Positions 739-52,537 of a stretch of DNA of 64,000 bases are shown here, piece after piece. The stretch's first letter is position 1. Each line of letters starts with the position of its first letter. The translations under genes were made by a program, and so were the position numbers. The notes under the pieces were generated by a model, which ran no database searches, had not been told where the DNA came from, and saw only the letters and a program-made list of their open reading frames with translations. The stretch lies in IMG/VR virus record IMGVR_UViG_3300032236_001457, positions 37,835 to 101,834 of that record; one strand, written 5' to 3'. The DNA comes from a virus.

Positions 739-1560
739 TTATACCTTCAATAAATTTGTTATATCATACATTTTTTTCATGTATGGTGATGGGTTATTTA
801 AAACACTGACTTCTAAATCACCTGCTCTTCTGGGCAAAACTTCGATGTCAAAATAACAGTCATTAACTGTTTTAAAAATTTCAACAATTTCCTTTACGCT
901 GTATCCATGCCCGTGTCCGAGATTTTCAATATCGCCGCTGGACTGTTTCACAGCAGTAACTAGTGCTTGGCAGATTTCGTTAACATGAACATAGTCTCTT
1001 ATACAAGTTCCGTCGGATGTATTATAGTCATCGCCATAGAGATTAAATGTTCCTGTTTCCCCGGCACGAATTAAATTATACATTAATCCATCGGGATTGG
1101 TTGGGGCACGACATTCACTACCTAGCACATTATAGAACCTGAATATAGTATGATTTTTTGGTTGATGTATTTTGCAAAACTCTGCTGTTACCTGTTCAGC
1201 GGCTCGTTTGCTCATCCCATAAACATTTTGTGGATTGCTAGCAACCCCGGTACTGGCCAATATAAAATTATCAGTTGTTACACGATTGAGAACATTTAGT
1301 GTGCCTTGAATATTCGTTGAATAATATCGAATCGGGCGTGATTCGCCTTCTCCTACTCTGACCTGTGCTGCTAGATGTATTACAGCATCAAACTGTTGTG
1401 GTATATGGAAATTTCCAACTATATCTACAGGATAAAAATCATGAACAGGAATAACTGGATCGACAATATCTAGTCCGTGGATTTCGTATTGTCCAGCCAT
1501 CATGTGGCATAGATGAGAACCGATGTATCCTGATGATCCTGTGATTAATACTTTCTTCAT
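739..1560 (-). CDS. galE: NAD-dependent epimerase/dehydratase, UDP-glucose 4-epimerase-like
   Basis: TGSSGYIGSH Rossmann motif, YGMSK, DGTCIRDYVHV, RRAGD. Confidence 0.8.
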   Translation of the reverse strand: MKKVLITGSSGYIGSHLCHMMAGQYEIHGLDIVDPVIPVHDFYPVDIVGNFHIPQQFDAVIHLAAQVRVGEGESRPIRYYSTNIQGTLNVLNRVTTDNFILASTGVASNPQNVYGMSKRAAEQVTAEFCKIHQPKNHTIFRFYNVLGSECRAPTNPDGLMYNLIRAGETGTFNLYGDDYNTSDGTCIRDYVHVNEICQALVTAVKQSSGDIENLGHGHGYSVKEIVEIFKTVNDCYFDIEVLPRRAGDLEVSVLNNPSPYMKKMYDITNLLKV

Positions 1561-31318: not shown

Positions 31319-31915
31319 TTAATCCACAACGGGTCCATTGCCATTACGAAATCCCACAGTGCCACCTTCTGATTCAATACGCTTGATTACATCTTCAAAC
31401 AGTATTGGTGCAAAGTCGGTCTGTTCTACACAAACACTGTGATACCGCACATCAATCTGTTCATCAACGTATTCGGTATTACCGTAACGAGTTTTTACCA
31501 TAACACGGTTAGAGTGGAGATGACCGTGTATATTGACACCAAACCTGCCCAGACTTTCTGGATGGATGGGAATGTGAGTCAGTATCATGCCATTCAGCAC
31601 ATGACAGCCCCTAATGGCTCTAAAATATTGTCGATATTCGTCATCGGTGAAAATATCGTGATTACCACGAATCAGCACCTTGTCCCCATTCAGCCTGGCC
31701 AGAGTGGGAAATGCTTTACGATTAATTATCACATCCCCTAAAAAATAACACTTATCTTTGGTGCGAACTCTTTCATTGAACCGTTTAATGAGTTCTTCGT
31801 CCATTTCCTCGGGAGTGTTCCAAGGTCTTAATTTAGTAACACCGTCGTTTCGCATAAATCGGCAAACACCGGCATGTCCAAAATGAGGATCGGAATATAA
31901 AAAGGTAGCAGACAT
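31319..31915 (-). CDS. calcineurin-like metallophosphoesterase
   Basis: SDPHFGH, LGD, GNHD, HGHLH. Confidence 0.9.
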   Translation of the reverse strand: MSATFLYSDPHFGHAGVCRFMRNDGVTKLRPWNTPEEMDEELIKRFNERVRTKDKCYFLGDVIINRKAFPTLARLNGDKVLIRGNHDIFTDDEYRQYFRAIRGCHVLNGMILTHIPIHPESLGRFGVNIHGHLHSNRVMVKTRYGNTEYVDEQIDVRYHSVCVEQTDFAPILFEDVIKRIESEGGTVGFRNGNGPVVD

Positions 31916-31983
31916 AACAACATCTCCGTTGTGATAAAATGATAAATAATTATAACATAAAACAAGTTAGGAGTCAACCAAAA

Positions 31984-32721
31984 ATGGCCTATGTTTATAA
32001 AGTAATTTTTTTACCTACAACCCAATACTATATTGGATATCGGGGCAGTAAAAAAGCAACACCAGATGACTTATTTACAACATATTTTACATCAAGTAAA
32101 GTAATAGCAAATCTAATTAAAGAGCACGGCGTAGATAAATTTTCTAAAGAAATATTGGCAGAGTTTGAAACTGGTATCGAAGCATATGAATATGAACAAC
32201 AGTTGCTTCGAGAACACAATGTAGAGGCAAATACACAGATGTTAAACAAACGCCTTACCTCCTGTGCATTAGATTCTTTTAAAAAACATACAGAAAAATC
32301 TAAAACACAAATGAGCAATAGCAGAAAATCTCTTTGGGAAGATCCTGATTACAGATCAAAAGTATCTAATTCTATTAGACAGTCTTGGGAAGATCCTGAT
32401 AGAATCAAAAGTTTGCAAACCGATGAGTTTCGACTACTAAAAAGCCAACAATCAAAAAAGTTATGGAAAGATCCTGCCTATTTAGAAAATTATAATCAGG
32501 CACACGCCAAAGCGGTAGACGATCCGGACTATCGAGTATGGCACAGTAATCACAAAACTGAATTATGGAAAGATCCTATTTATAAACAGCAACAAAATGA
32601 ATCTCGCAAAAAACGATGGGCGGATCCGGAATATAAAAAAATGATGAGTGATCGTCGTAAGGCCAAGTGGGCCGATCCTGAATACAAGGCCATGATGCTA
32701 GCCTCAAGAAAGAAAAGTTAA
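31984..32721 (+). CDS. GIY-YIG homing endonuclease with W-x-D-P-x-Y repeats
   Basis: AYVY...YYIGYR, YFTSSK; ~7 WxDPxY repeats; GATAAATA and GGAG upstream of ATG 31984. Confidence 0.75.
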   Translation: MAYVYKVIFLPTTQYYIGYRGSKKATPDDLFTTYFTSSKVIANLIKEHGVDKFSKEILAEFETGIEAYEYEQQLLREHNVEANTQMLNKRLTSCALDSFKKHTEKSKTQMSNSRKSLWEDPDYRSKVSNSIRQSWEDPDRIKSLQTDEFRLLKSQQSKKLWKDPAYLENYNQAHAKAVDDPDYRVWHSNHKTELWKDPIYKQQQNESRKKRWADPEYKKMMSDRRKAKWADPEYKAMMLASRKKS

Positions 32722-32728
32722 AAATATA

Positions 32729-32802
32729 TGGTAGCCCCTGACGGTAACGCTCCGCCGTATCCCACGTGTAAGGAGGGTGTTCTGCTTTTAAACTAAGGGG
32801 CC
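32729..32802 (-). tRNA. tRNA-Val(TAC), atypical T-loop
   Basis: GGCCCCT/AGGGGCT-ACCA acceptor, CTTACAC loop, T-loop AGCGTTA. Confidence 0.75.
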
Positions 32803-32999: not shown

Positions 33000-33242
33000 T
33001 TACTTAGTCTTTGTTAGGGGTGTTCGAACTTTTTTTAGGTATTCACGTCCGACCAATCCTGCTTCAATTTCTTGAAGTGCGCTAACGATTGGACCGTTGT
33101 TGGTATTTACTCGCTTGGCATCGCCGCGTTTAAGTTCTCGAGCACGAGCAGCAGCAATCAACACCATGTCAAATTTATTACCAACTTGGTGGGCAGCACG
33201 AATAACATCTACACTATTGGTCAACGCTTTAACTTTATTCAC
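33000..33242 (-). CDS. rpoZ: RNA polymerase omega subunit
   Basis: VGNKFDMVLIAAARAREL...PIVSALQEIEAG matches the omega signature; AAGGA SD before GTG. Confidence 0.85.
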   Translation of the reverse strand: MNKVKALTNSVDVIRAAHQVGNKFDMVLIAAARARELKRGDAKRVNTNNGPIVSALQEIEAGLVGREYLKKVRTPLTKTK

Positions 33243-33651: not shown

Positions 33652-33737
33652 TGGTGGGTAGCCAGGGAATCGAACCCCGTATGTCTAAAGACGCCGGATT
33701 TACAATCCAGTGCAGTCACCAATGCTGCTCGCTACCC
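33652..33737 (-). tRNA. tRNA-Tyr(GTA)
   Basis: Class II cloverleaf, TTGTAAA loop. Confidence 0.9.
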
Positions 33738-34058
33738 ATATTGAAACACACTGCGGAAGGGCTTGCACCTTCACTTTGGCTTTCCTTTCGGATACCCCAT
33801 CAAAGACCTGTTGCGGACAATGTGTTTCCATATGGTGTCAGTGTTGCTGACTCGGGAATCCCGACGCCCAGTGCTAAGAGAACACCTATTCGTCACCCTA
33901 CTCTTACCATATGGAAACACACTATGCCACGCTCTGAACCTGGACTCTTAGTAATGTGTTTCAATATGGTGTCACTCTCCTGACCACTTTTAACGGAGGG
34001 GGTAGAGCCTTGAGTGACGTGTCTTAGACAGGCTTTATTCCTGGTTACGTAACCATTT
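33736..34058 (-). ncRNA. unidentified structured RNA cassette inside tRNA array
   Basis: Four copies of a 15-16 nt element in alternating orientation, internal hairpins, two stems ending in ACCA. Confidence 0.6.
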
Positions 34059-34143
34059 TGGTGGGAATGGTGAGACTCGAACTCACACGTCTTTCAACGC
34101 CAGAACCTAAATCTGGTGCGGCTGCCAATTACGCCACATTCCC
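34059..34143 (-). tRNA. tRNA-Leu(TAG)
   Basis: Class II cloverleaf, TTTAGGT loop, ACCA. Confidence 0.95.
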
Positions 34144-34155
34144 AATAATCTTTTT

Positions 34156-34447
34156 TGGTGCCCAGGGCGGGACTCGAACCCGCATGCCATTACAGCGAGA
34201 GATTTTCTTACCACTATAGTTTTCACTACCCTTTCAGTTTGTGGTCTGGACTATACCTTGACCGTTGCTTTCGCTTTAGGTCCTCGCCGTCTAGTCTCTA
34301 CACGTTCCTAACATTTCTATTAGGCTTCGCTCGGTATTAGCATTTTACAGCCTTCACCGAATTTGACGAGTTCTACTCCTGCCGTTTCCTGCAGGGCACT
34401 CAAATTTCTTTCAAGTCTCTTATGTCTACCGATTTCATCACCCGGGC
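34156..34447 (-). tRNA. tRNA-Leu(TAA), split by intron (exons 34413-34447 and 34156-34206)
   Basis: Joined exons give AGAGA-CTTAAAA-TCTCT anticodon arm and GCCCGGG/CCTGGGC-ACCA acceptor. Confidence 0.9.
34207..34412 (-). mobile_element. self-splicing group I intron (trnL-UAA type, 206 nt)
   Basis: 5' exon ends in U and intron ends in G; P/Q/R/S-like elements AAATTCGGTGAA, AATACCGAGC, GTGTAGAGACTAGACG, AAGGTATAGTCC; IGS GAGT pairs exon ACTT. Confidence 0.9.
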
Positions 34448-35056
34448 GGTTAATCGTTTTAATCTTTCGTAGTTTCCACCTTTAGCAGCAAGACCCACTT
34501 CTATTAACGCTTGTCTAATGTTACTACATCTTTCATATGCTGTCAATAGTTCTTGGTCAGTTACTTTAGGTTTTCCACTATTTTTATTTCTACCTTTGTA
34601 AGTATCAGTTTGGCTATGACAATTAGGGCAGAGGTATCTTAAATTTGTTAATCTGTTATCACGATTATTACCGTTGATATGATCAAGATCTAAAACAATA
34701 GTTTCTCCACACCATTCATTAATACCGCACTTGATACATTTATATTCTAACAAATTATCTTTTACGATCCTTTGCTTAACCATTTCGTTTGAATACAAAC
34801 TATTTTCTGTAAAGACCAATTCATTTGGGATTAAATTTTTACCTTTTGCCCAATTCATTTTATCTTTAGTTTCCTGCGGTAACCTGTTATAAACAGTTGT
34901 CGACGCAGGTCTTTTATTAGCAGTATAAGACAATTTGGTTTTTTCAGAATTGATTTTTTTCAAAACTTCACAACCAGATGGTCTTTTACTACAACAATTT
35001 TTACCATTTTTAAGAGTAAAATTTGCGGCTCTACTACATCCATAATCACATAACAT
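34400..35056 (-). CDS. HNH endonuclease overlapping tRNA-Leu 5' exon
   Basis: CIKCG...LDHINGNNRDNRLTNLRYLCPNCHS; N-terminal CDYGC. Confidence 0.9.
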   Translation of the reverse strand: MLCDYGCSRAANFTLKNGKNCCSKRPSGCEVLKKINSEKTKLSYTANKRPASTTVYNRLPQETKDKMNWAKGKNLIPNELVFTENSLYSNEMVKQRIVKDNLLEYKCIKCGINEWCGETIVLDLDHINGNNRDNRLTNLRYLCPNCHSQTDTYKGRNKNSGKPKVTDQELLTAYERCSNIRQALIEVGLAAKGGNYERLKRLTARVMKSVDIRDLKEI

Positions 35057-39704: not shown

Positions 39705-41471
39705 TTATGCTATTTTTCTCAATTTCGAACCTTTAAGCAACTGTTTGACTCGCTTGAACGGATGTGTCCAATCTCCAAAAACTTCTTGCCTAATTAAACG
39801 CATTGAGTCGTAATACGGTGTTCGATCGCCATCCATAGCATATAGGAAATACGGCATCACTGGAACAATGACCCAGGTCTCTACACCCATCGCTGCTGCC
39901 AAATGACTTACACTAGTGCAGGAAGAAATAATTAAATCGCATGATGCTATGGCCTGTTGAGTATCCCTCCATGTGTCTAAAGGCACTTGTTTAACCCAAT
40001 CAGGACATGCATCAGCTCCTTCATCGCGTTGCAGACTGACAAACTCGGCATCAACATTCTCAACAGCATCGAACATTAGATCATAAGGAAATTTCTTATG
40101 ATGCTCGTGCTCAAATCGAGATTGGCCCTGCCATCTTAATCCTATGCGTTTTTTACGTCCCTTAATAGCGATTGGTTTTTCAATATATTGTTTACCGGAT
40201 AAGTCTTTCAGTGATAATCCTAATGGAACCACGGCCGACATTCCGGCGACCCAATAGTCATGATAAATGCCAAAGGCAGCTTCATGCTGCACTACTGCAC
40301 TGACTCCTTCGACTCCTACAAACAAACCAACTAAAGAACCACTAGCAGCAACCACAACATGGCATCCGCGTTCGGCGATATTTTTAGCATAGCGTATTTG
40401 ATGTATTTGATCACCTAGCCCGCCTTCCAAATATAACAACACAATTCCACGTTCTCTACCTGTCCATTGCGGGGTAGGAACGTTAGGCCGTTGATTGCCA
40501 AATACCCCAACTATTCGTCCCCGATCCATTAGTTCATAGCCTTTTTGAATTTGACCCTGGCGTAGATAATACCATCCTCGATTGTATGCGGCACGATGGT
40601 TATTAGGTTGTTCTAATTCAATCTTCTGTGCTAATCTCCACCCTTCGGCAAAGTTACCTATAGTGGATGCTGTTAATTGTAGATCAAGGTCCTGCACTTC
40701 AAGAACAGTGCGGGGGCTGTCCAACCAAAATTCAGGTTGGCAAAAATCTGGATAATAGTGTTTTAAAACATCGCGAGGATCTTGATTGTGCTGTCGAGCT
40801 AGCACTGGTTTGATGTCATGCATGCCTGCATACCCATGTAGGTTTTCATCATCCTCCTTGACCGTGGATCCATCTATATTTTTAAAATCATATTCGAATG
40901 GATCTAATTCTAAAAATTCGTGTATGCGATCTAACTCAGTTTTAGGATCTTTGATTAGATCTTCATATTCAACGAATAGAAAGTTTTCCGGAGACTGCTG
41001 ATATCCGTCCTGCAGACTAATATAGGCCGCACGAAGATGATCCATTAATCCGCCATTGGCCATGAAATGATCAAGATTGTCAGGATTAGCTATACGCACA
41101 AATGAAGCAGCACAGTCCGGAATAGATCGCACAGTGGCAATGATTCTTGGAGGACGCTCTATTACCTGCGACATAGCACTCATGATTTCAGCAATAGGCC
41201 AACCACGACTTTTATCAATGACAACAGGCTTGGCAGTATCTTGATAAAAAGCGTCAATTAACCCACGCATGGTCTGAGCAAGTTTCTTTCGTTCAGGATC
41301 ATTTTCGCCCAACAATTCTGCAGAATGCCAAGTAGTTGCCAGTCCATTCAATGCAGCAACTAGTCCTGAGGTAGTAGAAACATGCACCGCAGGATTTTGG
41401 TTCAATATGGCCGCAAGAACAGTAGATCCGCTACGTGGAATACCGGATAAAAAATGTAGTGTTTTATTCAT
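39705..41471 (-). CDS. sulfotransferase fused to TPR/GT9-like domain
   Basis: PRSGST PAPS-binding motif, VEYEDL; GGLGDQI, DLIISSCTSVSHLAAAMG. Confidence 0.8.
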   Translation of the reverse strand: MNKTLHFLSGIPRSGSTVLAAILNQNPAVHVSTTSGLVAALNGLATTWHSAELLGENDPERKKLAQTMRGLIDAFYQDTAKPVVIDKSRGWPIAEIMSAMSQVIERPPRIIATVRSIPDCAASFVRIANPDNLDHFMANGGLMDHLRAAYISLQDGYQQSPENFLFVEYEDLIKDPKTELDRIHEFLELDPFEYDFKNIDGSTVKEDDENLHGYAGMHDIKPVLARQHNQDPRDVLKHYYPDFCQPEFWLDSPRTVLEVQDLDLQLTASTIGNFAEGWRLAQKIELEQPNNHRAAYNRGWYYLRQGQIQKGYELMDRGRIVGVFGNQRPNVPTPQWTGRERGIVLLYLEGGLGDQIHQIRYAKNIAERGCHVVVAASGSLVGLFVGVEGVSAVVQHEAAFGIYHDYWVAGMSAVVPLGLSLKDLSGKQYIEKPIAIKGRKKRIGLRWQGQSRFEHEHHKKFPYDLMFDAVENVDAEFVSLQRDEGADACPDWVKQVPLDTWRDTQQAIASCDLIISSCTSVSHLAAAMGVETWVIVPVMPYFLYAMDGDRTPYYDSMRLIRQEVFGDWTHPFKRVKQLLKGSKLRKIA

Positions 41472-41479
41472 GCGTATAC

Positions 41480-42670
41480 TTATGTCGAGATCGCTGCCGA
41501 GACACTAGTTCCCATATTTGATTCAGGCAACTTGATCCACGTGGTCAACGCACCAACCTGCACTGGAGAATTATAATCGGTAGAACCGCCAAGACCCAAC
41601 TGACCATAATATCCACGGCCCCATGCCCATAATGTACCGTTAGTTTTGAGAGCAAGCGTATGATCATACCCGGTAGCAACACTGAGCCAATTGGTCAATG
41701 CACCAACTTGAGTGGGAGAAGATCGACCTAACGCATCACCTACTCCTAGTGGGGTACCATCACCCCACGCCCATAGTGTACCATCTGTTTTTACCGCAAG
41801 TGTGTGATAACGAGATGCAGTGACACTTAACCAATTAGTTAACGCTCCGACCTGTACTGGCGATTGATAATAAGTTAGATTACCTAATCCTAATTCACCG
41901 CTGGAATTTTTACCCCATGTCCATAATGTCCCATCAGACTTGACAGCAGCCATATGATAGGTTCCACAGGCAACATCTGTCCATGTAGTCAACGCTCCTA
42001 CTTGGTTTGGGGAAGATTTCACAGTATATGAACCAATCCCTAGCTGCCCACTGCTGTTCTGTCCCCACGTCCACAATGTCCCATTGGTCTTAATGGCAGC
42101 AGTGTTGAGCTTGCCTTTGACAATCTTCGACCAATTGGTTAACGCACCGACTTGTTTGGGTGAACTATAGGCTGTTGTATTGCCTAAACCGAGATTTCCA
42201 GTATTTCCCGATCCCCATGACCATAAAGTACCATCAGTCTTGACAGCAGCCATACTGATCAATGAAGTACTGCCCTTACTGACAGAAATCTTACTCCAAT
42301 TAGTTAGTGCGCCAACCTGCTTAGGAGAACTGTAACCAGTTATGTTACCTAATCCAAGGTTTCCAGATCCTCCACTACCCCATGTCCATAATGTGCCATC
42401 GGTTTTAACGGCACCCATACTGTATCCACCGGTGGCAATGGCTGTCCAAGTGGTTAATGCGCCAACTTGGTTTGGAGAATATTTTATTACCTTGTTGTTA
42501 AGACCTAGTTGACCACTGCTATTAGTACCCCATGTATACAATTTTCCATTGGTGGCACCGCCTCCGCCGCCACCTCCGCCACCTGCTACAGGTCTCGGTG
42601 TGGCTGTCATTTTATGAGCTCTTGTAGGACCTCCGGTTCCAAATGTACCTTTTCTCCAGATCGTTGCCAT
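41480..42670 (-). CDS. RCC1-repeat beta-propeller protein
   Basis: Seven ~50-aa repeats KTDGTLWxWG...GxLG...SSPxQVGALTxW; poly-Gly linker. Confidence 0.9.
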   Translation of the reverse strand: MATIWRKGTFGTGGPTRAHKMTATPRPVAGGGGGGGGGATNGKLYTWGTNSSGQLGLNNKVIKYSPNQVGALTTWTAIATGGYSMGAVKTDGTLWTWGSGGSGNLGLGNITGYSSPKQVGALTNWSKISVSKGSTSLISMAAVKTDGTLWSWGSGNTGNLGLGNTTAYSSPKQVGALTNWSKIVKGKLNTAAIKTNGTLWTWGQNSSGQLGIGSYTVKSSPNQVGALTTWTDVACGTYHMAAVKSDGTLWTWGKNSSGELGLGNLTYYQSPVQVGALTNWLSVTASRYHTLAVKTDGTLWAWGDGTPLGVGDALGRSSPTQVGALTNWLSVATGYDHTLALKTNGTLWAWGRGYYGQLGLGGSTDYNSPVQVGALTTWIKLPESNMGTSVSAAIST

Positions 42671-50346: not shown

Positions 50347-51037
50347 CTGGGGTTTGATATTCGTTCTTAACCTGTTCAATTCCAGTTAGTGGATAAACAA
50401 TTCCGTTTACTTTTAAGTGCTGTCCTAATAAAGTTTCAGCATGATAATGCAGTCCTTGTCTATGATATTGCTCAAAGTAATCTATAGCATTACAATAGAC
50501 CGACATTGCAGCACTAGTTCCAAATGCAATCATATCATTTAAAGCGAATCCGATACCATTTCGAAGATTATCAGGTGTAATTATAACATTAGGATTTGCC
50601 TGTATAAACTGATTTACCAGTCTAAGATTCAGTTTAGATCGTATCCCAACATCACCCCTTGACCTAATTACCATATCATAGGGGTTGTGTTTTTCTCTTA
50701 GTATATTGACCTGTTTTAGTGCTGAATAATTATTCCACACATGAATAGGATTGGTCCATGGATTGCGCTGTAGCCAATCTGGTATGGTATATTCGGGAGG
50801 GTTAGTCACTACTAATTCTACCAGATTGGACTTAGGTGGGAGATTTTTAATTATCCTTGATTTTACATCTTCCTCAGCGATTGGCCAAGTCCTGGGTATT
50901 AGCATACTTTCTTCATGCTTGGCTATCCATATATAGAAGAAAAAATCTAGTTGATCATAATCTTCTAAATTATCAAGGAAATCATCGAATTCACGAGTGA
51001 ATCTGGGCTGTCCTGTGATAAGAACAGCAGCCTTCAT
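50300..51037 (-). CDS. GQPRF-family GT-like protein
   Basis: ITGQPRF, YDMVIRSRGD. Confidence 0.6.
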   Translation of the reverse strand: MKAAVLITGQPRFTREFDDFLDNLEDYDQLDFFFYIWIAKHEESMLIPRTWPIAEEDVKSRIIKNLPPKSNLVELVVTNPPEYTIPDWLQRNPWTNPIHVWNNYSALKQVNILREKHNPYDMVIRSRGDVGIRSKLNLRLVNQFIQANPNVIITPDNLRNGIGFALNDMIAFGTSAAMSVYCNAIDYFEQYHRQGLHYHAETLLGQHLKVNGIVYPLTGIEQVKNEYQTPVSLSHPDFVDYGRWK

Positions 51038-52227
51038 CAGCAATATCCCCATTTAGCAATGGCAACACGATATTCTTCGCCTGGTGTTTTGTCCACGGCT
51101 TGACGCATGGCACGAGCACCCGCTACAGTTCCCCCGGGGTGTCCGTGAACAGCACCGCCCACATTGGCCATATAATCTACGCCAACCTGTCCTGTAACAT
51201 AATCAATTAGCCCCGCATGCATTCCGCAACTGAGAACAGGAGTAGTATTGCCATCTCTTAGTACTCGCATACTTTCCATTAGCTCTTCAGGATCGTCATT
51301 ACTATATCCACCAATCATTCCGGTTTGAATAGTGTCTACTCCCATTAGAGTGGCTAGTTGACAAATCACAGGCCATGCAATGCTAAATCTATGACTGGCA
51401 TCTGTAAAGACTTTATCTCCGCTTTTCTGGAAATGTAGGAATAATGGCAAGTCTAATTTACGAATACTGTTATAAACACCTAGTCCACTGAATACATTAA
51501 TGTGAACACCGTTGCCGCCTAGTTCATGCACTCGGTTAACACGATCAACAATAACATGTGGATCAGCATTGATAGTATGACAGATTACAACTTTACGACT
51601 TTGTTTAGCCATATAGTTGGCAATCAAGTCAACCCTACGTTCTAACGGAGCACAGGCAGGGTTACTCATGATTTCATCCTCTTTGATAAAATCAACACCG
51701 CCGTCGACCATTTGTTTTACCATTTCTAGCAATACTTCTGGAGTGATACCAATCTTAGGTTTAACAATACTACCAAATAGCGGTTTACCGTATTGTCCTG
51801 TAAACTGTCTAAATCCACTTAATCCAAATTTAGGTCCTAGAAAATGTTTAGTAACGGTCTCAGGTAGTTCTAATTTAATCAATCTACAGCGTGTGATAAT
51901 ATCAATATCAACATGCCCGCCCATTAATTGGCATAGCAAGTGACTGATACCATCGGTTTCCCAATCTGTATTAGCTACAGGAAAGGCAATGGATACCTCT
52001 CCGTGTTTTGCAACTTCTAAGTTATGTTCGTTTCCAAGAATAATACAACTGTGATTTTCAAATAGGTCATCAGTTTCCCATTCGTTACGCACATTGGGAT
52101 TACCTACACTTTGACCGATGGCTAGGTTCCATGCGGCTTCTTTAAGATTTTTACTACTTGCCATGTCGTAGGTAGCAATGTAGTAATCGTTTTTGTTGAT
52201 CTCATTAATGGTTTTAAAGAACTTCAT
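51037..52227 (-). CDS. RuBisCO-like protein (form IV-type large subunit)
   Basis: SIVKPKIG, GGVDFIKEDE, GGAVHGHPGG..AGARAMRQA; start MKFFK at 52227. Confidence 0.9.
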   Translation of the reverse strand: MKFFKTINEINKNDYYIATYDMASSKNLKEAAWNLAIGQSVGNPNVRNEWETDDLFENHSCIILGNEHNLEVAKHGEVSIAFPVANTDWETDGISHLLCQLMGGHVDIDIITRCRLIKLELPETVTKHFLGPKFGLSGFRQFTGQYGKPLFGSIVKPKIGITPEVLLEMVKQMVDGGVDFIKEDEIMSNPACAPLERRVDLIANYMAKQSRKVVICHTINADPHVIVDRVNRVHELGGNGVHINVFSGLGVYNSIRKLDLPLFLHFQKSGDKVFTDASHRFSIAWPVICQLATLMGVDTIQTGMIGGYSNDDPEELMESMRVLRDGNTTPVLSCGMHAGLIDYVTGQVGVDYMANVGGAVHGHPGGTVAGARAMRQAVDKTPGEEYRVAIAKWGYC

Positions 52228-52537
52228 ATTTGTCTCCGGGTAAGCTAGGTGTTTTAACACAGACCAATTGGCAATCCTCTAAAAATTCAGGTTCGGCAAC
52301 TTCTCCGGGTTCGATAACAAATACATCTCCTGCTACCATTTCTACTCCATTTATTTTCATATGTCCTTTAATTAATACATTATATTCAGTAGCGACAGCA
52401 TGATAATGTTTAGCCCACTGTTCGCCTTTGGTATGATTCAGTAGACTAACTTCAAATTGATCAGTTTTAAGTAGGGTGGGTTCAAAATTGCCAATAAACC
52501 AACCACGATAGAATTCACTAATATTACGCTTTATCAT
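52214..52537 (-). CDS. cupin domain protein
   Basis: GWFIGNF, HYH...EYN, GDVFVIEPGE. Confidence 0.8.
   Translation of the reverse strand: MIKRNISEFYRGWFIGNFEPTLLKTDQFEVSLLNHTKGEQWAKHYHAVATEYNVLIKGHMKINGVEMVAGDVFVIEPGEVAEPEFLEDCQLVCVKTPSLPGDKYEVL

What the first reader, a model, noticed from the sequence alone, without database searches (positions are those of the whole stretch)
33736..34058. Unexplained 320-nt structured RNA cassette with switchable nested inverted repeats and CCA-ended mini-stems
Seen: four copies of one element. L1 CCATATTGAAACACA (33736-33750), R1 TGTGTTTCCATATGGT (33821-33836), L2 ACCATATGGAAACACA (33906-33921), R2 TGTGTTTCAATATGG (33955-33969). L1/R1 and L2/R2 pair with one mismatch each, whereas L1/R2 and R1/L2 pair perfectly, giving two alternative folds. 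On the transcribed strand, the enclosed segments hold a TCC-GAAA-GGA tetraloop, a T-arm mimic GAAGG-TGCAAGC-CCTTC, a 7-bp acceptor-like stem GTCACTC/GAGTGAC followed by ACCA (33967-34018), and a GTCAG/CTGAC hairpin followed by ACCA (33833-33851). No credible ORF. Inference: processed non-tRNA small RNAs (tRNA decoys, or analogues of the T4 tRNA-cluster stable RNAs), or RNase III-type processing stems.
Basis: partly seen in the sequence, partly recalled or inferred. Interest (0 to 1): 0.75.

Follow-up and report, generated by a model that had tools for sequence, protein, structure and literature searches.

The report
Clamp-hairpin RNA cassettes in phage tRNA operon
The four repeats are the arms of two copies of a long RNA hairpin found in the tRNA gene clusters of many uncultured lake phages; it starts on the CCA end of the RNA before it, carries interchangeable small RNAs at its tip, and is probably cut out like a spacer.

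Summary
The four 15-16 nt arms, the mini-stems and the T-arm-like hairpin are all at the stated coordinates, on the transcribed minus strand between tRNA-Leu(UAG) and tRNA-Tyr.

The stretch is not one RNA. It holds four conserved modules:
- X1, a small RNA.
- Clamp hairpin 1, with a 33-nt cargo (loop1).
- X2, a structured RNA of about 72 nt.
- Clamp hairpin 2, with a 70-nt cargo (loop2) that carries a T-arm.

The clamp is a 19-bp stem, CCAUAUUGAAACACAUU paired with AGUGUGUUUCAAUAUGG. It recurs in IMG/VR viral contigs, 93 of the first 120 holding tRNA arrays. In half of 146 cases it starts exactly on a tRNA's CCA. Compensatory changes and a strong G-U over A-C bias on the tRNA strand show RNA-level pairing. 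The 145 hairpins carry 115 unrelated cargo families, and empty clamps also exist.

The loop1 hairpin also fills the intervening segment of phage two-piece tmRNA genes, a position that must be removed. My best reading is therefore an excisable spacer that releases both its neighbours and its cargo. The enzyme, perhaps RNase III, is inferred.

The "switch" is not general: local pairing wins in 56 adjacent clamp pairs and nested pairing in 2. In this window the nested match looks like a recombination scar.

I found no Rfam match, paper, cellular genome or cultured phage carrying the element. The scan has noted this family before on other DNA.

The parts
34059..34143 (-). tRNA-Leu(UAG), the RNA just upstream of the cassette in the transcript
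   Evidence: ARAGORN; Rfam tRNA at 52.4 bits.
33971..34058 (-). Module X1: a conserved non-tRNA small RNA of about 88 nt. It has a GGUU-loop-AACC hairpin, a UGUC-UAA-GACA hairpin and a closing 7-bp stem GUCACUC/GAGUGAC.
   Evidence: Found in 7 contigs, directly after a tRNA's CCA in six of them and followed by a clamp in all. It is almost invariant and shows no covariation. It is not called as a tRNA.
33906..33970 (-). Clamp hairpin 1: 5' arm 33955-33969 plus A33970, 3' arm 33907-33921 plus U33906. It has a U-C mismatch at stem position 7.
   Evidence: Repeat and inverted-repeat. Family census. In the alignment of 38 loop1 hairpins, 94% of cells pair, 8 pairs show compensatory changes and 0 of 500 shuffles match.
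33922..33954 (-). Cargo loop1 (33 nt, UUACUAAGAGUCCAGGUUCAGAGCGUGGCAUAG)
   Evidence: Its 22-nt core occurs exactly in 59 IMG/VR contigs. In every copy that could be read with its flanks it sits inside a clamp whose stem sequence varies. In L133, L138, L166, L174 and L176 it lies inside a beta-type permuted tmRNA gene, in the intervening segment. It is absent from 185,579 prokaryote species genomes.
33837..33905 (-). Module X2: a conserved structured small RNA of about 69-72 nt, ending in the GUCAG-CAACA-CUGAC hairpin.
   Evidence: Exact 22-mer in 6 IMG/VR contigs, plus divergent copies in L055, L049 and L218. RNAalifold predicts 20 pairs, 6 with compensatory changes. In relatives it is flanked by clamps that are empty or carry other cargo.
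33736..33836 (-). Clamp hairpin 2: 5' arm 33821-33835 plus A33836, 3' arm 33736-33750. It has a G-A mismatch at position 7. The last two bases of the 3' arm (33736-33737) are G1 and G2 of tRNA-Tyr.
   Evidence: The same overlap with the next tRNA's start is seen in 17 of 146 family members.
33751..33820 (-). Cargo loop2 (70 nt). It holds a GAAA-capped hairpin (33783-33792) and a T-arm-like hairpin GAAGG-UGCAAGC-CCUUC (33756-33772) that ends 2 nt before the top of the clamp helix.
   Evidence: An identical cargo sits in a perfect clamp after a divergent X2 in metagenome contig L218, and a variant copy lies in L215. The 17-mer is the T-arm of phage tRNA-like genes in L125 and L127-L131, as read from their flanks. 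T-arm-like hairpins occur in 16 of 145 cargos, against 1.8 in shuffled loops.
33652..33737 (-). tRNA-Tyr, the RNA just downstream of the cassette
   Evidence: ARAGORN; Rfam at 43.3 bits. The same tRNA-Tyr follows an empty clamp in L187, L206 and L207.

Best explanation
The stretch is part of the phage's polycistronic tRNA transcript. It reads: tRNA-Leu, X1, clamp hairpin 1 with cargo loop1, X2, clamp hairpin 2 with cargo loop2, tRNA-Tyr.

The four repeats are the arms of two copies of one family of 'clamp' hairpins. The clamp is a 19-bp helix whose 5' strand begins at the discriminator and CCA of the preceding RNA. Its 3' strand ends at, or overlaps, the first bases of the following RNA. The tip is either closed by about 4 nt (empty) or carries one of very many unrelated small structured RNAs.

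I propose that the clamp is an excisable spacer, like the intervening segment of two-piece tmRNA genes or of some rRNA genes. It folds locally as it is transcribed. Host enzymes then cut it away: RNase P at the junction with a following tRNA, a double-strand-specific endonuclease (most simply RNase III) within the AU-rich stem, and 3' exonucleases that trim back to the CCA. This would free the flanking RNAs (tRNAs, X1, X2) and release the cargo as a short hairpin RNA.

Because the stem is nearly the same in many phages, it also serves as a site of homology where modules are exchanged. The mismatch in each of this window's hairpins, together with the perfect outer (a-d) and inner (b-c) matches, is the scar of such an exchange.

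Shown here: the family, RNA-level pairing, modularity, cargo conservation and occupancy of the tmRNA intervening position. Inferred: excision itself, the enzymes involved, and what X1, X2 and the cargos do.
For: 1. Family and context.
2. Position. Of 146 unique hairpins on the tRNA strand, 73 start exactly on the CCA of a called tRNA and 17 end on the first bases of the next tRNA. In an unbiased scan, 100 of 1149 tRNAs have at least 15 of 16 pairs starting at the discriminator, against 1 in the control.
3. RNA-level helix. Pairing runs from position -1 to 18 and then falls to chance. At positions 11-14 and 16 there are 208 G-U or U-G pairs and 2 A-C pairs on the tRNA strand. Positions 16-18 were not imposed by the search, yet position 16 is U-G in 116 of 144, position 17 is U-A in 138 of 144, and position 18 covaries with all four Watson-Crick pair types. 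In the formal count, 94% of cells pair against 27-53% when the partner is slid, 8 pairs are compensatory, and 0 of 500 shuffles match.
4. Modularity. There are 115 cargo families among 145 hairpins, and some have their own compensatory changes. The same cargo occurs behind different tRNAs and in different stems. Empty clamps exist in L184, L185, L187 and L206-L208. A contig from a lake metatranscriptome run carries clamp 2 without its 70-nt cargo.
5. Removal. The loop1 hairpin lies between the CCA and the +1 G of beta-type permuted tmRNA genes (ARAGORN tmRNA*; RF01850 and RF04321 above their gathering scores). That segment is absent from mature two-piece tmRNA and is removed by tRNA-processing enzymes (PMC11915505).
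6. Local hairpins are the selected fold: local pairing is better in 56 adjacent pairs, equal in 26 and worse in 2.
7. Exchange. L206 and L207 have X1, an empty clamp and then tRNA-Tyr. This window has the same outer arms with loop1, arm b, X2, arm c and loop2 between them. Arms b and c are the GG/CC variant, which forms a perfect local hairpin in L206.
Against: - No RNA ends were seen. The only runs that hold the region are assembled contigs, which cannot show ends or strand.
- The RNA-library contig that spans tRNA-Tyr, a clamp and X2 is compatible with an uncut precursor or with contaminating DNA.
- 19 bp is at the short end for E. coli RNase III (from general knowledge).
- 22 of the 38 loop1 clamps have an A-C opposition at position 8, and both clamps here have a mismatch at position 7. 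These could hinder or redirect a double-strand nuclease.
- The strong sequence conservation of the stem, including CCAUAU in 85 of 113 hairpins found without any sequence constraint, goes beyond what a structure-only substrate needs. It hints at a sequence-specific factor that I could not identify.
- The tmRNA argument shows removal for a diverged clamp with a 3-nt bulge, not for this exact stem.
Confidence: 0.55

Rival explanations
1. Regulatory switch. The four arms toggle between two local hairpins and a nested fold (a-d with b-c), which controls processing or release of X2 and the cargos.
For: In this window the nested pairs are perfect and each local pair has one mismatch. The nested fold is the predicted minimum at -110.2 kcal/mol, against -105.0 for the local fold. 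L184, which also has X1, a clamp, X2 and a clamp, shows the same bias.
Against: Any two copies of the same palindromic stem can pair both ways. Among 84 adjacent clamp pairs, local pairing is better in 56 and nested in only 2. Most clamps occur singly, with no second copy to switch to. The other X2 loci I checked (L185, L055) favour local pairing, and L005, L186 and L187 show no nested advantage. The hairpin that forms first during transcription is the local one.
Confidence: 0.07
2. DNA-level mobile or recombination element. On this view the inverted repeats are terminal repeats of a miniature transposon, or attC-like recombination sites that move tRNA and small-RNA cassettes, and the RNA hairpin is incidental.
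For: The cargo shows presence/absence polymorphism at an otherwise identical site. This window and L184 have chimeric arms. The same cargo sits in many contexts. Homing-endonuclease genes lie beside the array.
Against: Wobble pairs are strongly asymmetric between strands, with 208 G-U against 2 A-C at positions 11-14 and 16. That is expected for selection on RNA, not on double-stranded repeats bound by a protein. The stem starts precisely on the functional CCA ends. I noted no target-site duplication and no linked transposase or integrase; the commonest neighbours are a phosphoesterase, an RNase H-like protein, dCMP deaminase and T4 RNase H. Exchange by ordinary homologous recombination needs no dedicated machinery and is already part of the best explanation.
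Confidence: 0.13
3. tRNA-end mimics or decoys. X1 and X2, as mini-helices ending in ACCA, are the functional point. They would be charged, bind CCA-adding or repair enzymes, or soak up tRNA-targeting defence nucleases, and the clamps would be mere spacers.
For: Both modules end in a stem followed by ACCA. X2 is a conserved structured RNA with covariation. X1 is nearly invariant across 7 contigs. 11% of cargos carry T-arm-like hairpins.
Against: Neither module is recognised by ARAGORN or by the Rfam tRNA or tmRNA models, even at E up to 10. X1's CCA reads UCA in L205 and CUA in L075. The ACCA is the first four bases of the clamp consensus, and it also follows simple leader hairpins in L187 and L005.
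Confidence: 0.1
4. Stable display scaffold. The clamp is not cleaved internally. After RNase P and trimming, the whole hairpin survives as a nuclease-resistant stalk that presents the cargo, much as a laboratory tRNA scaffold does.
For: The helix is long, nearly perfect and of fixed length. Cargo is more conserved than the stem: loop1 is invariant over 26 columns while the stems vary. Cargo always sits at the tip.
Against: If the hairpin were not separated from the upstream CCA by an endonuclease, the upstream tRNA or tmRNA acceptor piece could not be charged. A cut at or in the stem is therefore needed at least on the 5' side (an inference from the tmRNA case). Empty clamps have nothing to display.
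Confidence: 0.15

Closest known systems
Intervening segment (IVS) of circularly permuted two-piece tmRNA genes (Rfam RF01850 beta_tmRNA, RF04321 tmRNA_permuted; PMC11915505)
   Same: It lies between an encoded CCA 3' end and the +1 base of the next RNA piece and is absent from the mature RNA. In phage contigs L133, L138, L166, L174 and L176, the hairpin that fills this position carries the same loop1 cargo as clamp 1 of this window.
   Different: Here the hairpin links two unrelated RNAs in a tRNA operon rather than the two halves of one RNA. The window region itself gives no tmRNA match. The stems in the tmRNA copies are a diverged, bulged variant. A shared stem with many alternative cargos is not mentioned in the tmRNA database paper I read.
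RNase III processing stalks of rRNA operons, 23S rRNA intervening sequences and phage T7 early sites (general knowledge; reviewed in PMC8708148, which was listed but not read)
   Same: A long double-stranded stem formed by sequences that flank or separate stable RNAs in a polycistronic precursor. Cutting it releases the parts.
   Different: Cleavage has not been shown here. The helix is only 19 bp, often has a central A-C or other mismatch, is strongly conserved in sequence across phages, starts exactly on a CCA end and carries interchangeable cargo.
Theta (minimal HDV-like) ribozymes next to phage tRNAs (bioRxiv 10.1101/2023.06.13.544163, abstract seen)
   Same: An RNA element found next to viral tRNA genes and proposed to take part in tRNA processing.
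   Different: No ribozyme family of Rfam matches the region, even at E up to 10. The clamp is a plain helix with no conserved catalytic core, and the variable part differs completely between copies.
Phage T4 tRNA-cluster stable RNAs (species 1 and 2, rnaC and rnaD), from general knowledge
   Same: Non-tRNA small RNAs co-transcribed with phage tRNAs, of unknown function. X1 and X2 fit that description.
   Different: No sequence similarity to any record in the 50,697-record phage collection at E 1e-5. I did not compare structures, and I know of no clamp stems described for T4.
Integron attC sites and gene cassettes (general knowledge)
   Same: Hairpin-forming inverted repeats with conserved bases and a variable centre that delimit exchangeable modules.
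   Different: attC sites act as folded single-stranded DNA with an integrase. Here the strand-asymmetric wobble pattern points to RNA, no integrase was seen among the commonest neighbours, and the variable centre is itself highly conserved cargo.

Membership tests
tRNA (Rfam RF00005 / ARAGORN) | A cloverleaf with an anticodon arm that scores above the family threshold | tested here: not met
   ARAGORN and Rfam call the flanking tRNAs but nothing in 33738-34058, even at E up to 10.
Any described RNA family (Rfam 15, 4227 models), including HDV-like, hammerhead, twister, hatchet and pistol ribozymes, tmRNA, YrlA, GOLLD and ROOL | A covariance-model match | tested here: not met
   The only hits over the region are chance-level microRNA and lncRNA models at E of 5 to 8.
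Phage tRNA-operon clamp hairpin family (defined in this scan, undescribed in the papers searched) | An 18-19 bp helix whose 5' strand starts at the discriminator and CCA, with consensus CCAUAUUGAAACACAUU paired to AGUGUGUUUCAAUAUGG | tested here: met
   Both window hairpins match, with one mismatch each.
Phage tRNA-operon clamp hairpin family | Location within a phage tRNA array, on the tRNA strand | tested here: met
   The hairpins lie between tRNA-Leu and tRNA-Tyr on the minus strand. 93 of 120 family loci hold tRNA arrays.
Phage tRNA-operon clamp hairpin family | Cargo at the tip that is shared with other members | tested here: met
   The 22-nt core of loop1 is in 59 contigs. loop2 is in L218 and L215.
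Permuted two-piece tmRNA | An acceptor piece with a T-arm and a 3' strand ending in CCA, then an IVS, then a coding piece that starts with the 5' acceptor strand and carries a tag reading frame | tested here: not met
   There is no tmRNA call in the window or the whole 101.8-kb record. There is no RF04321 or RF01850 match over X1 or X2. Only the IVS-like hairpin is shared.
RNase III substrate | About two turns of uninterrupted double-stranded RNA | tested here: inconclusive
   The helix is 19 bp. It has a central mismatch in both window copies and an A-C opposition at position 8 in 22 of 38 loop1 copies.
RNase III substrate | Staggered cleavage that leaves 2-nt 3' overhangs | not testable with these tools
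   Only assembled contigs were available, and they cannot show RNA ends.
Miniature inverted-repeat transposable element | Terminal inverted repeats with a target-site duplication and symmetric conservation of both repeats at the DNA level | tested here: not met
   Inverted repeats are present. However, non-Watson-Crick positions are strand-asymmetric, with 208 G-U against 2 A-C at positions 11-14 and 16. I noted no flanking direct duplication in the listed flanks; this was by eye, not a formal test.

The most novel reading that the evidence does not exclude
The clamp is a universal adaptor of a phage-specific RNA cassette system. Any small RNA placed at the tip of this stem is expressed from the tRNA operon, released by the host's own stable-RNA processing enzymes, and traded between phages by recombination in the stems. 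The hundreds of cargos and the inter-clamp modules (X1, X2) would then be a large, unexplored repertoire of phage effector RNAs, for example decoys or guides aimed at host translation, RNA-repair or defence factors. Some, like loop1, are so conserved that they probably bind one specific partner.
Probability: 0.3. Interest if true: 0.85.

Novelty: new variant of a known kind. Interest (0 to 1): 0.68.

Why it matters
Phage tRNA clusters are usually annotated as tRNAs plus empty spacers. Here the spacers are a conserved RNA architecture present in many uncultured large phages, and it carries a very diverse set of small structured RNAs. Some of these are invariant across dozens of otherwise different genomes.

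If the clamps are excised as proposed, several things follow:
- They define a new route by which phages make small RNAs.
- They explain how CCA ends and two-piece tmRNAs are matured in these phages.
- They point to many candidate effector RNAs of unknown function.
- They offer a natural, portable expression-and-release scaffold for RNA.

The system is directly testable by expressing a few hundred bases in a laboratory bacterium.

Tried and rejected
- blastn of the region against 50,697 phage records found no match. The flanks matched only tRNAs and a group I intron.
- The pattern search in the five nearest cultured jumbo phages (PA5oct, Atu_ph07, XacN1, Phosso, SCTP-2) gave no exact copy and no clamp pair in the listed hits. 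I found no cultured carrier.
- The clamp pattern and the loop1 22-mer gave 0 hits in 185,579 prokaryote species genomes. So there is no prophage or host copy, and no exact antisense target for loop1.
- RNA evidence was limited. One lake metatranscriptome run and four runs of unknown kind hold relatives, but only as assembled contigs, which show no ends, strand or expression level. A part without cover there means nothing.
- Two exact-pattern scans of viral contigs gave nothing: the X2 3' part and the loop2 5' part. Other patterns, and the metagenome scan, did find homologues.
- Literature: the arm sequences appear in no paper. Searches on tRNA arrays, ribozymes, RNase III and two-piece tmRNA found no description of the element.
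- I looked for a linked phage enzyme. The commonest neighbours are a metallophosphoesterase (32 loci) and a PF04308 RNase H-like protein (30 loci), but they are far from universal and may only reflect conserved T4-like gene order. The 1212-aa protein flagged by another note has no Pfam match.
- I considered X1 plus X2 as a degenerate two-piece tmRNA and rejected it, because no model matches and there is no T-arm next to the 3' strand.
- I considered RNase P or RNase Z measuring from the cargo T-arm. Only 11% of cargos have a T-arm, so this cannot be general.

Full report
**What is in the window**

The window is the 3' 64 kb of a 101.8-kb IMG/VR viral contig that CheckV rates 27% complete. It comes from a large myovirus. 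Its clamp-loader protein is 57% identical to that of Pseudomonas jumbo phage PA5oct, and it has collagen-like tail fibres and many auxiliary metabolic genes.

A tRNA operon lies on the minus strand from about 34450 to 32732. The finding, 33738-34058, sits between tRNA-Leu(UAG) at 34059-34143 and tRNA-Tyr at 33652-33737.

The motif occurs four times exactly, with a fifth site at 2 mismatches, against about 0.5 sites at up to 2 mismatches expected by chance. The region folds better than shuffles (z = -3.55). No Rfam family matches it, even at E up to 10.

**The repeats belong to a widespread family**

Of these, 93 hold tRNA arrays with 1183 tRNAs in total.

On the tRNA strand I collected 146 unique hairpins of the form CCAUAU-N9, loop, N9-AUAUGG. 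Of these, 73 start exactly on the CCA of a called tRNA, and 17 end on the first bases of the next tRNA, as clamp 2 does here.

A second scan imposed no sequence beyond the encoded CCA. It found at least 15 of 16 pairs starting at the discriminator for 100 of 1149 tRNAs, against 1 in the control. Of the 113 hairpins with at least 14 pairs, 85 read CCAUAU. They are enriched after tRNA-Lys, Leu, Glu and Gln.

**The pairing is selected at the RNA level**

The helix runs from the discriminator pair (position -1) to position 18 and then drops to chance. Positions 16-18 were not part of the search, yet:
- Position 16 is U-G in 116 of 144.
- Position 17 is U-A in 138 of 144.
- Position 18 covaries with all four Watson-Crick pair types.

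Non-Watson-Crick pairs are strand-asymmetric. At positions 11-14 and 16 there are 208 G-U or U-G pairs and 2 A-C pairs. The one exception is an A-C opposition at position 8.

A gap-free alignment of 38 hairpins that share the loop1 cargo gives 94% paired cells, against 27-53% when the partner strand is slid. Eight pairs show changes on both sides, and 0 of 500 shuffles reach the observed values. These sequences are related, so the shuffle control overstates significance. The slide control and the wobble asymmetry do not have that weakness.

**The tips are interchangeable cargo**

The 145 hairpins carry 115 unrelated loop families, from 9 to 126 nt long. Some have their own compensatory changes.

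Empty clamps, closed by UUAG-NN-UUAG, occur in L184, L185, L187 and L206-L208. A contig from a lake metatranscriptome run carries clamp 2 of a roughly 95% identical relative with 5 nt in place of the 70-nt cargo.

T-arm-like hairpins occur in 16 of 145 cargos, against 1.8 in shuffled loops. In half of these the T-arm ends 2-3 nt before the 3' arm.

**The four modules of this window are each conserved elsewhere, in other combinations**

- **loop1.** Its 22-nt core is exact in 59 IMG/VR contigs. In every copy that could be read with its flanks it sits inside a clamp. The cargo is invariant over 26 columns while the stems vary.
- **X2.** It occurs in at least 9 contigs. A consensus fold has 20 pairs, 6 of them with compensatory changes.
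- **X1.** It occurs in 7 contigs, directly after a tRNA's CCA in six of them and followed by a clamp in all, and is almost invariant. Its terminal ACCA reads AUCA in L205 and ACUA in L075, so the CCA is part of the clamp consensus rather than a conserved chargeable end.
- **loop2.** It is identical in metagenome contig L218, where it sits in a perfect clamp after a divergent X2. A variant copy lies in L215. Its GAAGG-UGCAAGC-CCUUC hairpin is the T-arm of phage tRNA-like genes elsewhere, as read from their flanks.

**Link to two-piece tmRNA**

In L133, L138, L166, L174 and L176 the loop1 hairpin lies inside a permuted tmRNA gene of the betaproteobacterial type. ARAGORN calls tmRNA* in all five; of the four scanned with Rfam (not L166), RF01850 and RF04321 score above their gathering thresholds. 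Read from the sequence, the hairpin sits precisely between ...GGUCC-A-CCA and GGGCCUG.... That is the intervening segment.

This segment is absent from the mature two-piece RNA and is removed by tRNA-processing enzymes (PMC11915505). A tmRNA cannot be charged unless that hairpin is cut off its CCA.

This is my main reason to read clamps as excisable spacers. The clamp in those genes is a diverged, bulged variant, so the inference is by homology of position and cargo, not identity.

**The proposed switch**

Two copies of one palindromic stem can always pair locally or nested. In this window the nested pairs are perfect and each local pair has one mismatch. The nested fold is predicted about 5 kcal/mol more stable, at -110.2 against -105.0 kcal/mol.

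Across 84 adjacent clamp pairs, however, local pairing is better in 56, equal in 26 and worse in only 2. Those two are this window and L184, the two loci arranged as X1, clamp, X2, clamp.

L206 and L207 have X1, an empty clamp and tRNA-Tyr. This window has the same outer arms (a, d), with loop1, arm b, X2, arm c and loop2 between them. Arms b and c are the GG/CC stem variant, which forms a perfect local hairpin in L206.

The simplest account is a double crossover within clamp stems, between a recipient clamp of the U7-A type and donor clamps of the G7-C type. That would leave two chimeric clamps. This is an inference, but it explains the exact mismatch pattern and fits the module shuffling seen throughout the family.

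**Mechanism, and how sure I am**

| Claim | Status | My estimate |
|---|---|---|
| A widespread RNA-level hairpin family that punctuates phage tRNA operons and carries modular, conserved cargo | Shown | about 0.9 |
| Clamps are cut out, freeing the flanking RNAs and the cargo | Inferred | about 0.6 |
| RNase III cuts in the stem, with RNase P at the tRNA junction and exonucleases trimming to CCA | Inferred | about 0.35 for RNase III specifically |

The 19-bp length, the central mismatches and the strong sequence conservation leave room for another, sequence-specific factor. The commonest neighbouring genes are a metallophosphoesterase and a PF04308 RNase H-like protein, but neither is universal. 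What X1, X2 and the cargos do is unknown.

**Comparison with what is known, and novelty**

The closest known things are the intervening segment of permuted tmRNA genes and RNase III stalks or intervening sequences of rRNA operons. Theta ribozymes occupy a similar place next to phage tRNAs, but no ribozyme model matches here.

I found the element in none of the following:
- Rfam.
- The papers searched, either by sequence or by topic.
- 185,579 prokaryote species genomes.
- 50,697 phage records.
- The five nearest cultured jumbo phages.

Other agents of this scan reported the same family on other DNA (e1-5833960, e1-5699318, e1-5379362). I re-derived their main points independently. I add the position-by-position helix analysis, the local-versus-nested test, the recombination-scar reading, the homologues of all four modules of this window, and verification of the tmRNA link.

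Noticed in passing
window 34156-34450 (-): A tRNA gene interrupted by a group I intron. Rfam Intron_gpI scores 45 bits at 34225-34422, just under its gathering score of 50. A tRNA 3'-half-like sequence lies at 34156-34181, and ARAGORN does not call the gene. The intron resembles sequence in 735-kb uncultured huge-phage records (LR756501, about 75% identity).
   Followed up: partly
window 34400-35056 (-): An HNH homing-endonuclease ORF (PHROG 10822, E 1.5e-33) directly upstream of, and overlapping, the 5' part of the intron-containing tRNA. A second homing-endonuclease-like ORF lies at 31939-32721 (+).
   Followed up: partly
window 33000-33242 (-): An 80-aa ORF inside the tRNA array matches the RNA polymerase omega/Rpb6 family (PF01192, 45 bits against a cut-off of 26). 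A phage-encoded omega-like subunit between tRNA genes is unusual.
   Followed up: no
window 51037-52260 (-): A RuBisCO large-subunit-like protein (PF00016, E 5.7e-38) encoded by a phage. Nearby are an RCC1-repeat protein (41480-42670), a sulfotransferase (39705-41471), three GT17 glycosyltransferases and a RimK-like ATP-grasp enzyme.
   Followed up: no
window 32732-32802 (-): A ninth tRNA found by Rfam (42.8 bits) but not by ARAGORN.
   Followed up: no
L133:6917-7292, L138:2486-2931, L166:7206-7571, L174:2069-2436, L176:80-438, L011:13937-14332: Phage-encoded circularly permuted (two-piece) tmRNA genes, of the betaproteobacterial type in the four scanned with Rfam. This hints that some clamp-bearing phages infect Betaproteobacteria.
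   Followed up: partly
example loci L168:3066-3626, L006:3560-4027; window 31319-31915: Among 190 clamp or cargo loci, the most frequent neighbouring proteins are a calcineurin-like metallophosphoesterase (32 loci, and also next to this window's array) and a small PF04308 RNase H-like protein (30 loci). They could be RNA end-healing or processing factors, or simply reflect conserved gene order.
   Followed up: partly
L016:~930-1010 (-), L041 (- strand, downstream of loop1 hairpin): Another recurrent non-tRNA module, GGGUACUAAGAAUAUCCGUUCUCGAAAGGUGCAAAUCCUGG, lies between clamps. It has a UGCAAAU loop like the T-arm variant of loop2.
   Followed up: no
clamp stem position 8 (window 33962 and 33914 for clamp 1): An A-C opposition at stem position 8 is the only tolerated non-wobble mismatch in the family: 24 A-C plus 2 C-A among 144 hairpins overall, and 22 of 38 unpaired cells in loop1 clamps. 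Both window clamps have their mismatch at the adjacent position 7. A conserved central defect may matter for cleavage.
   Followed up: partly
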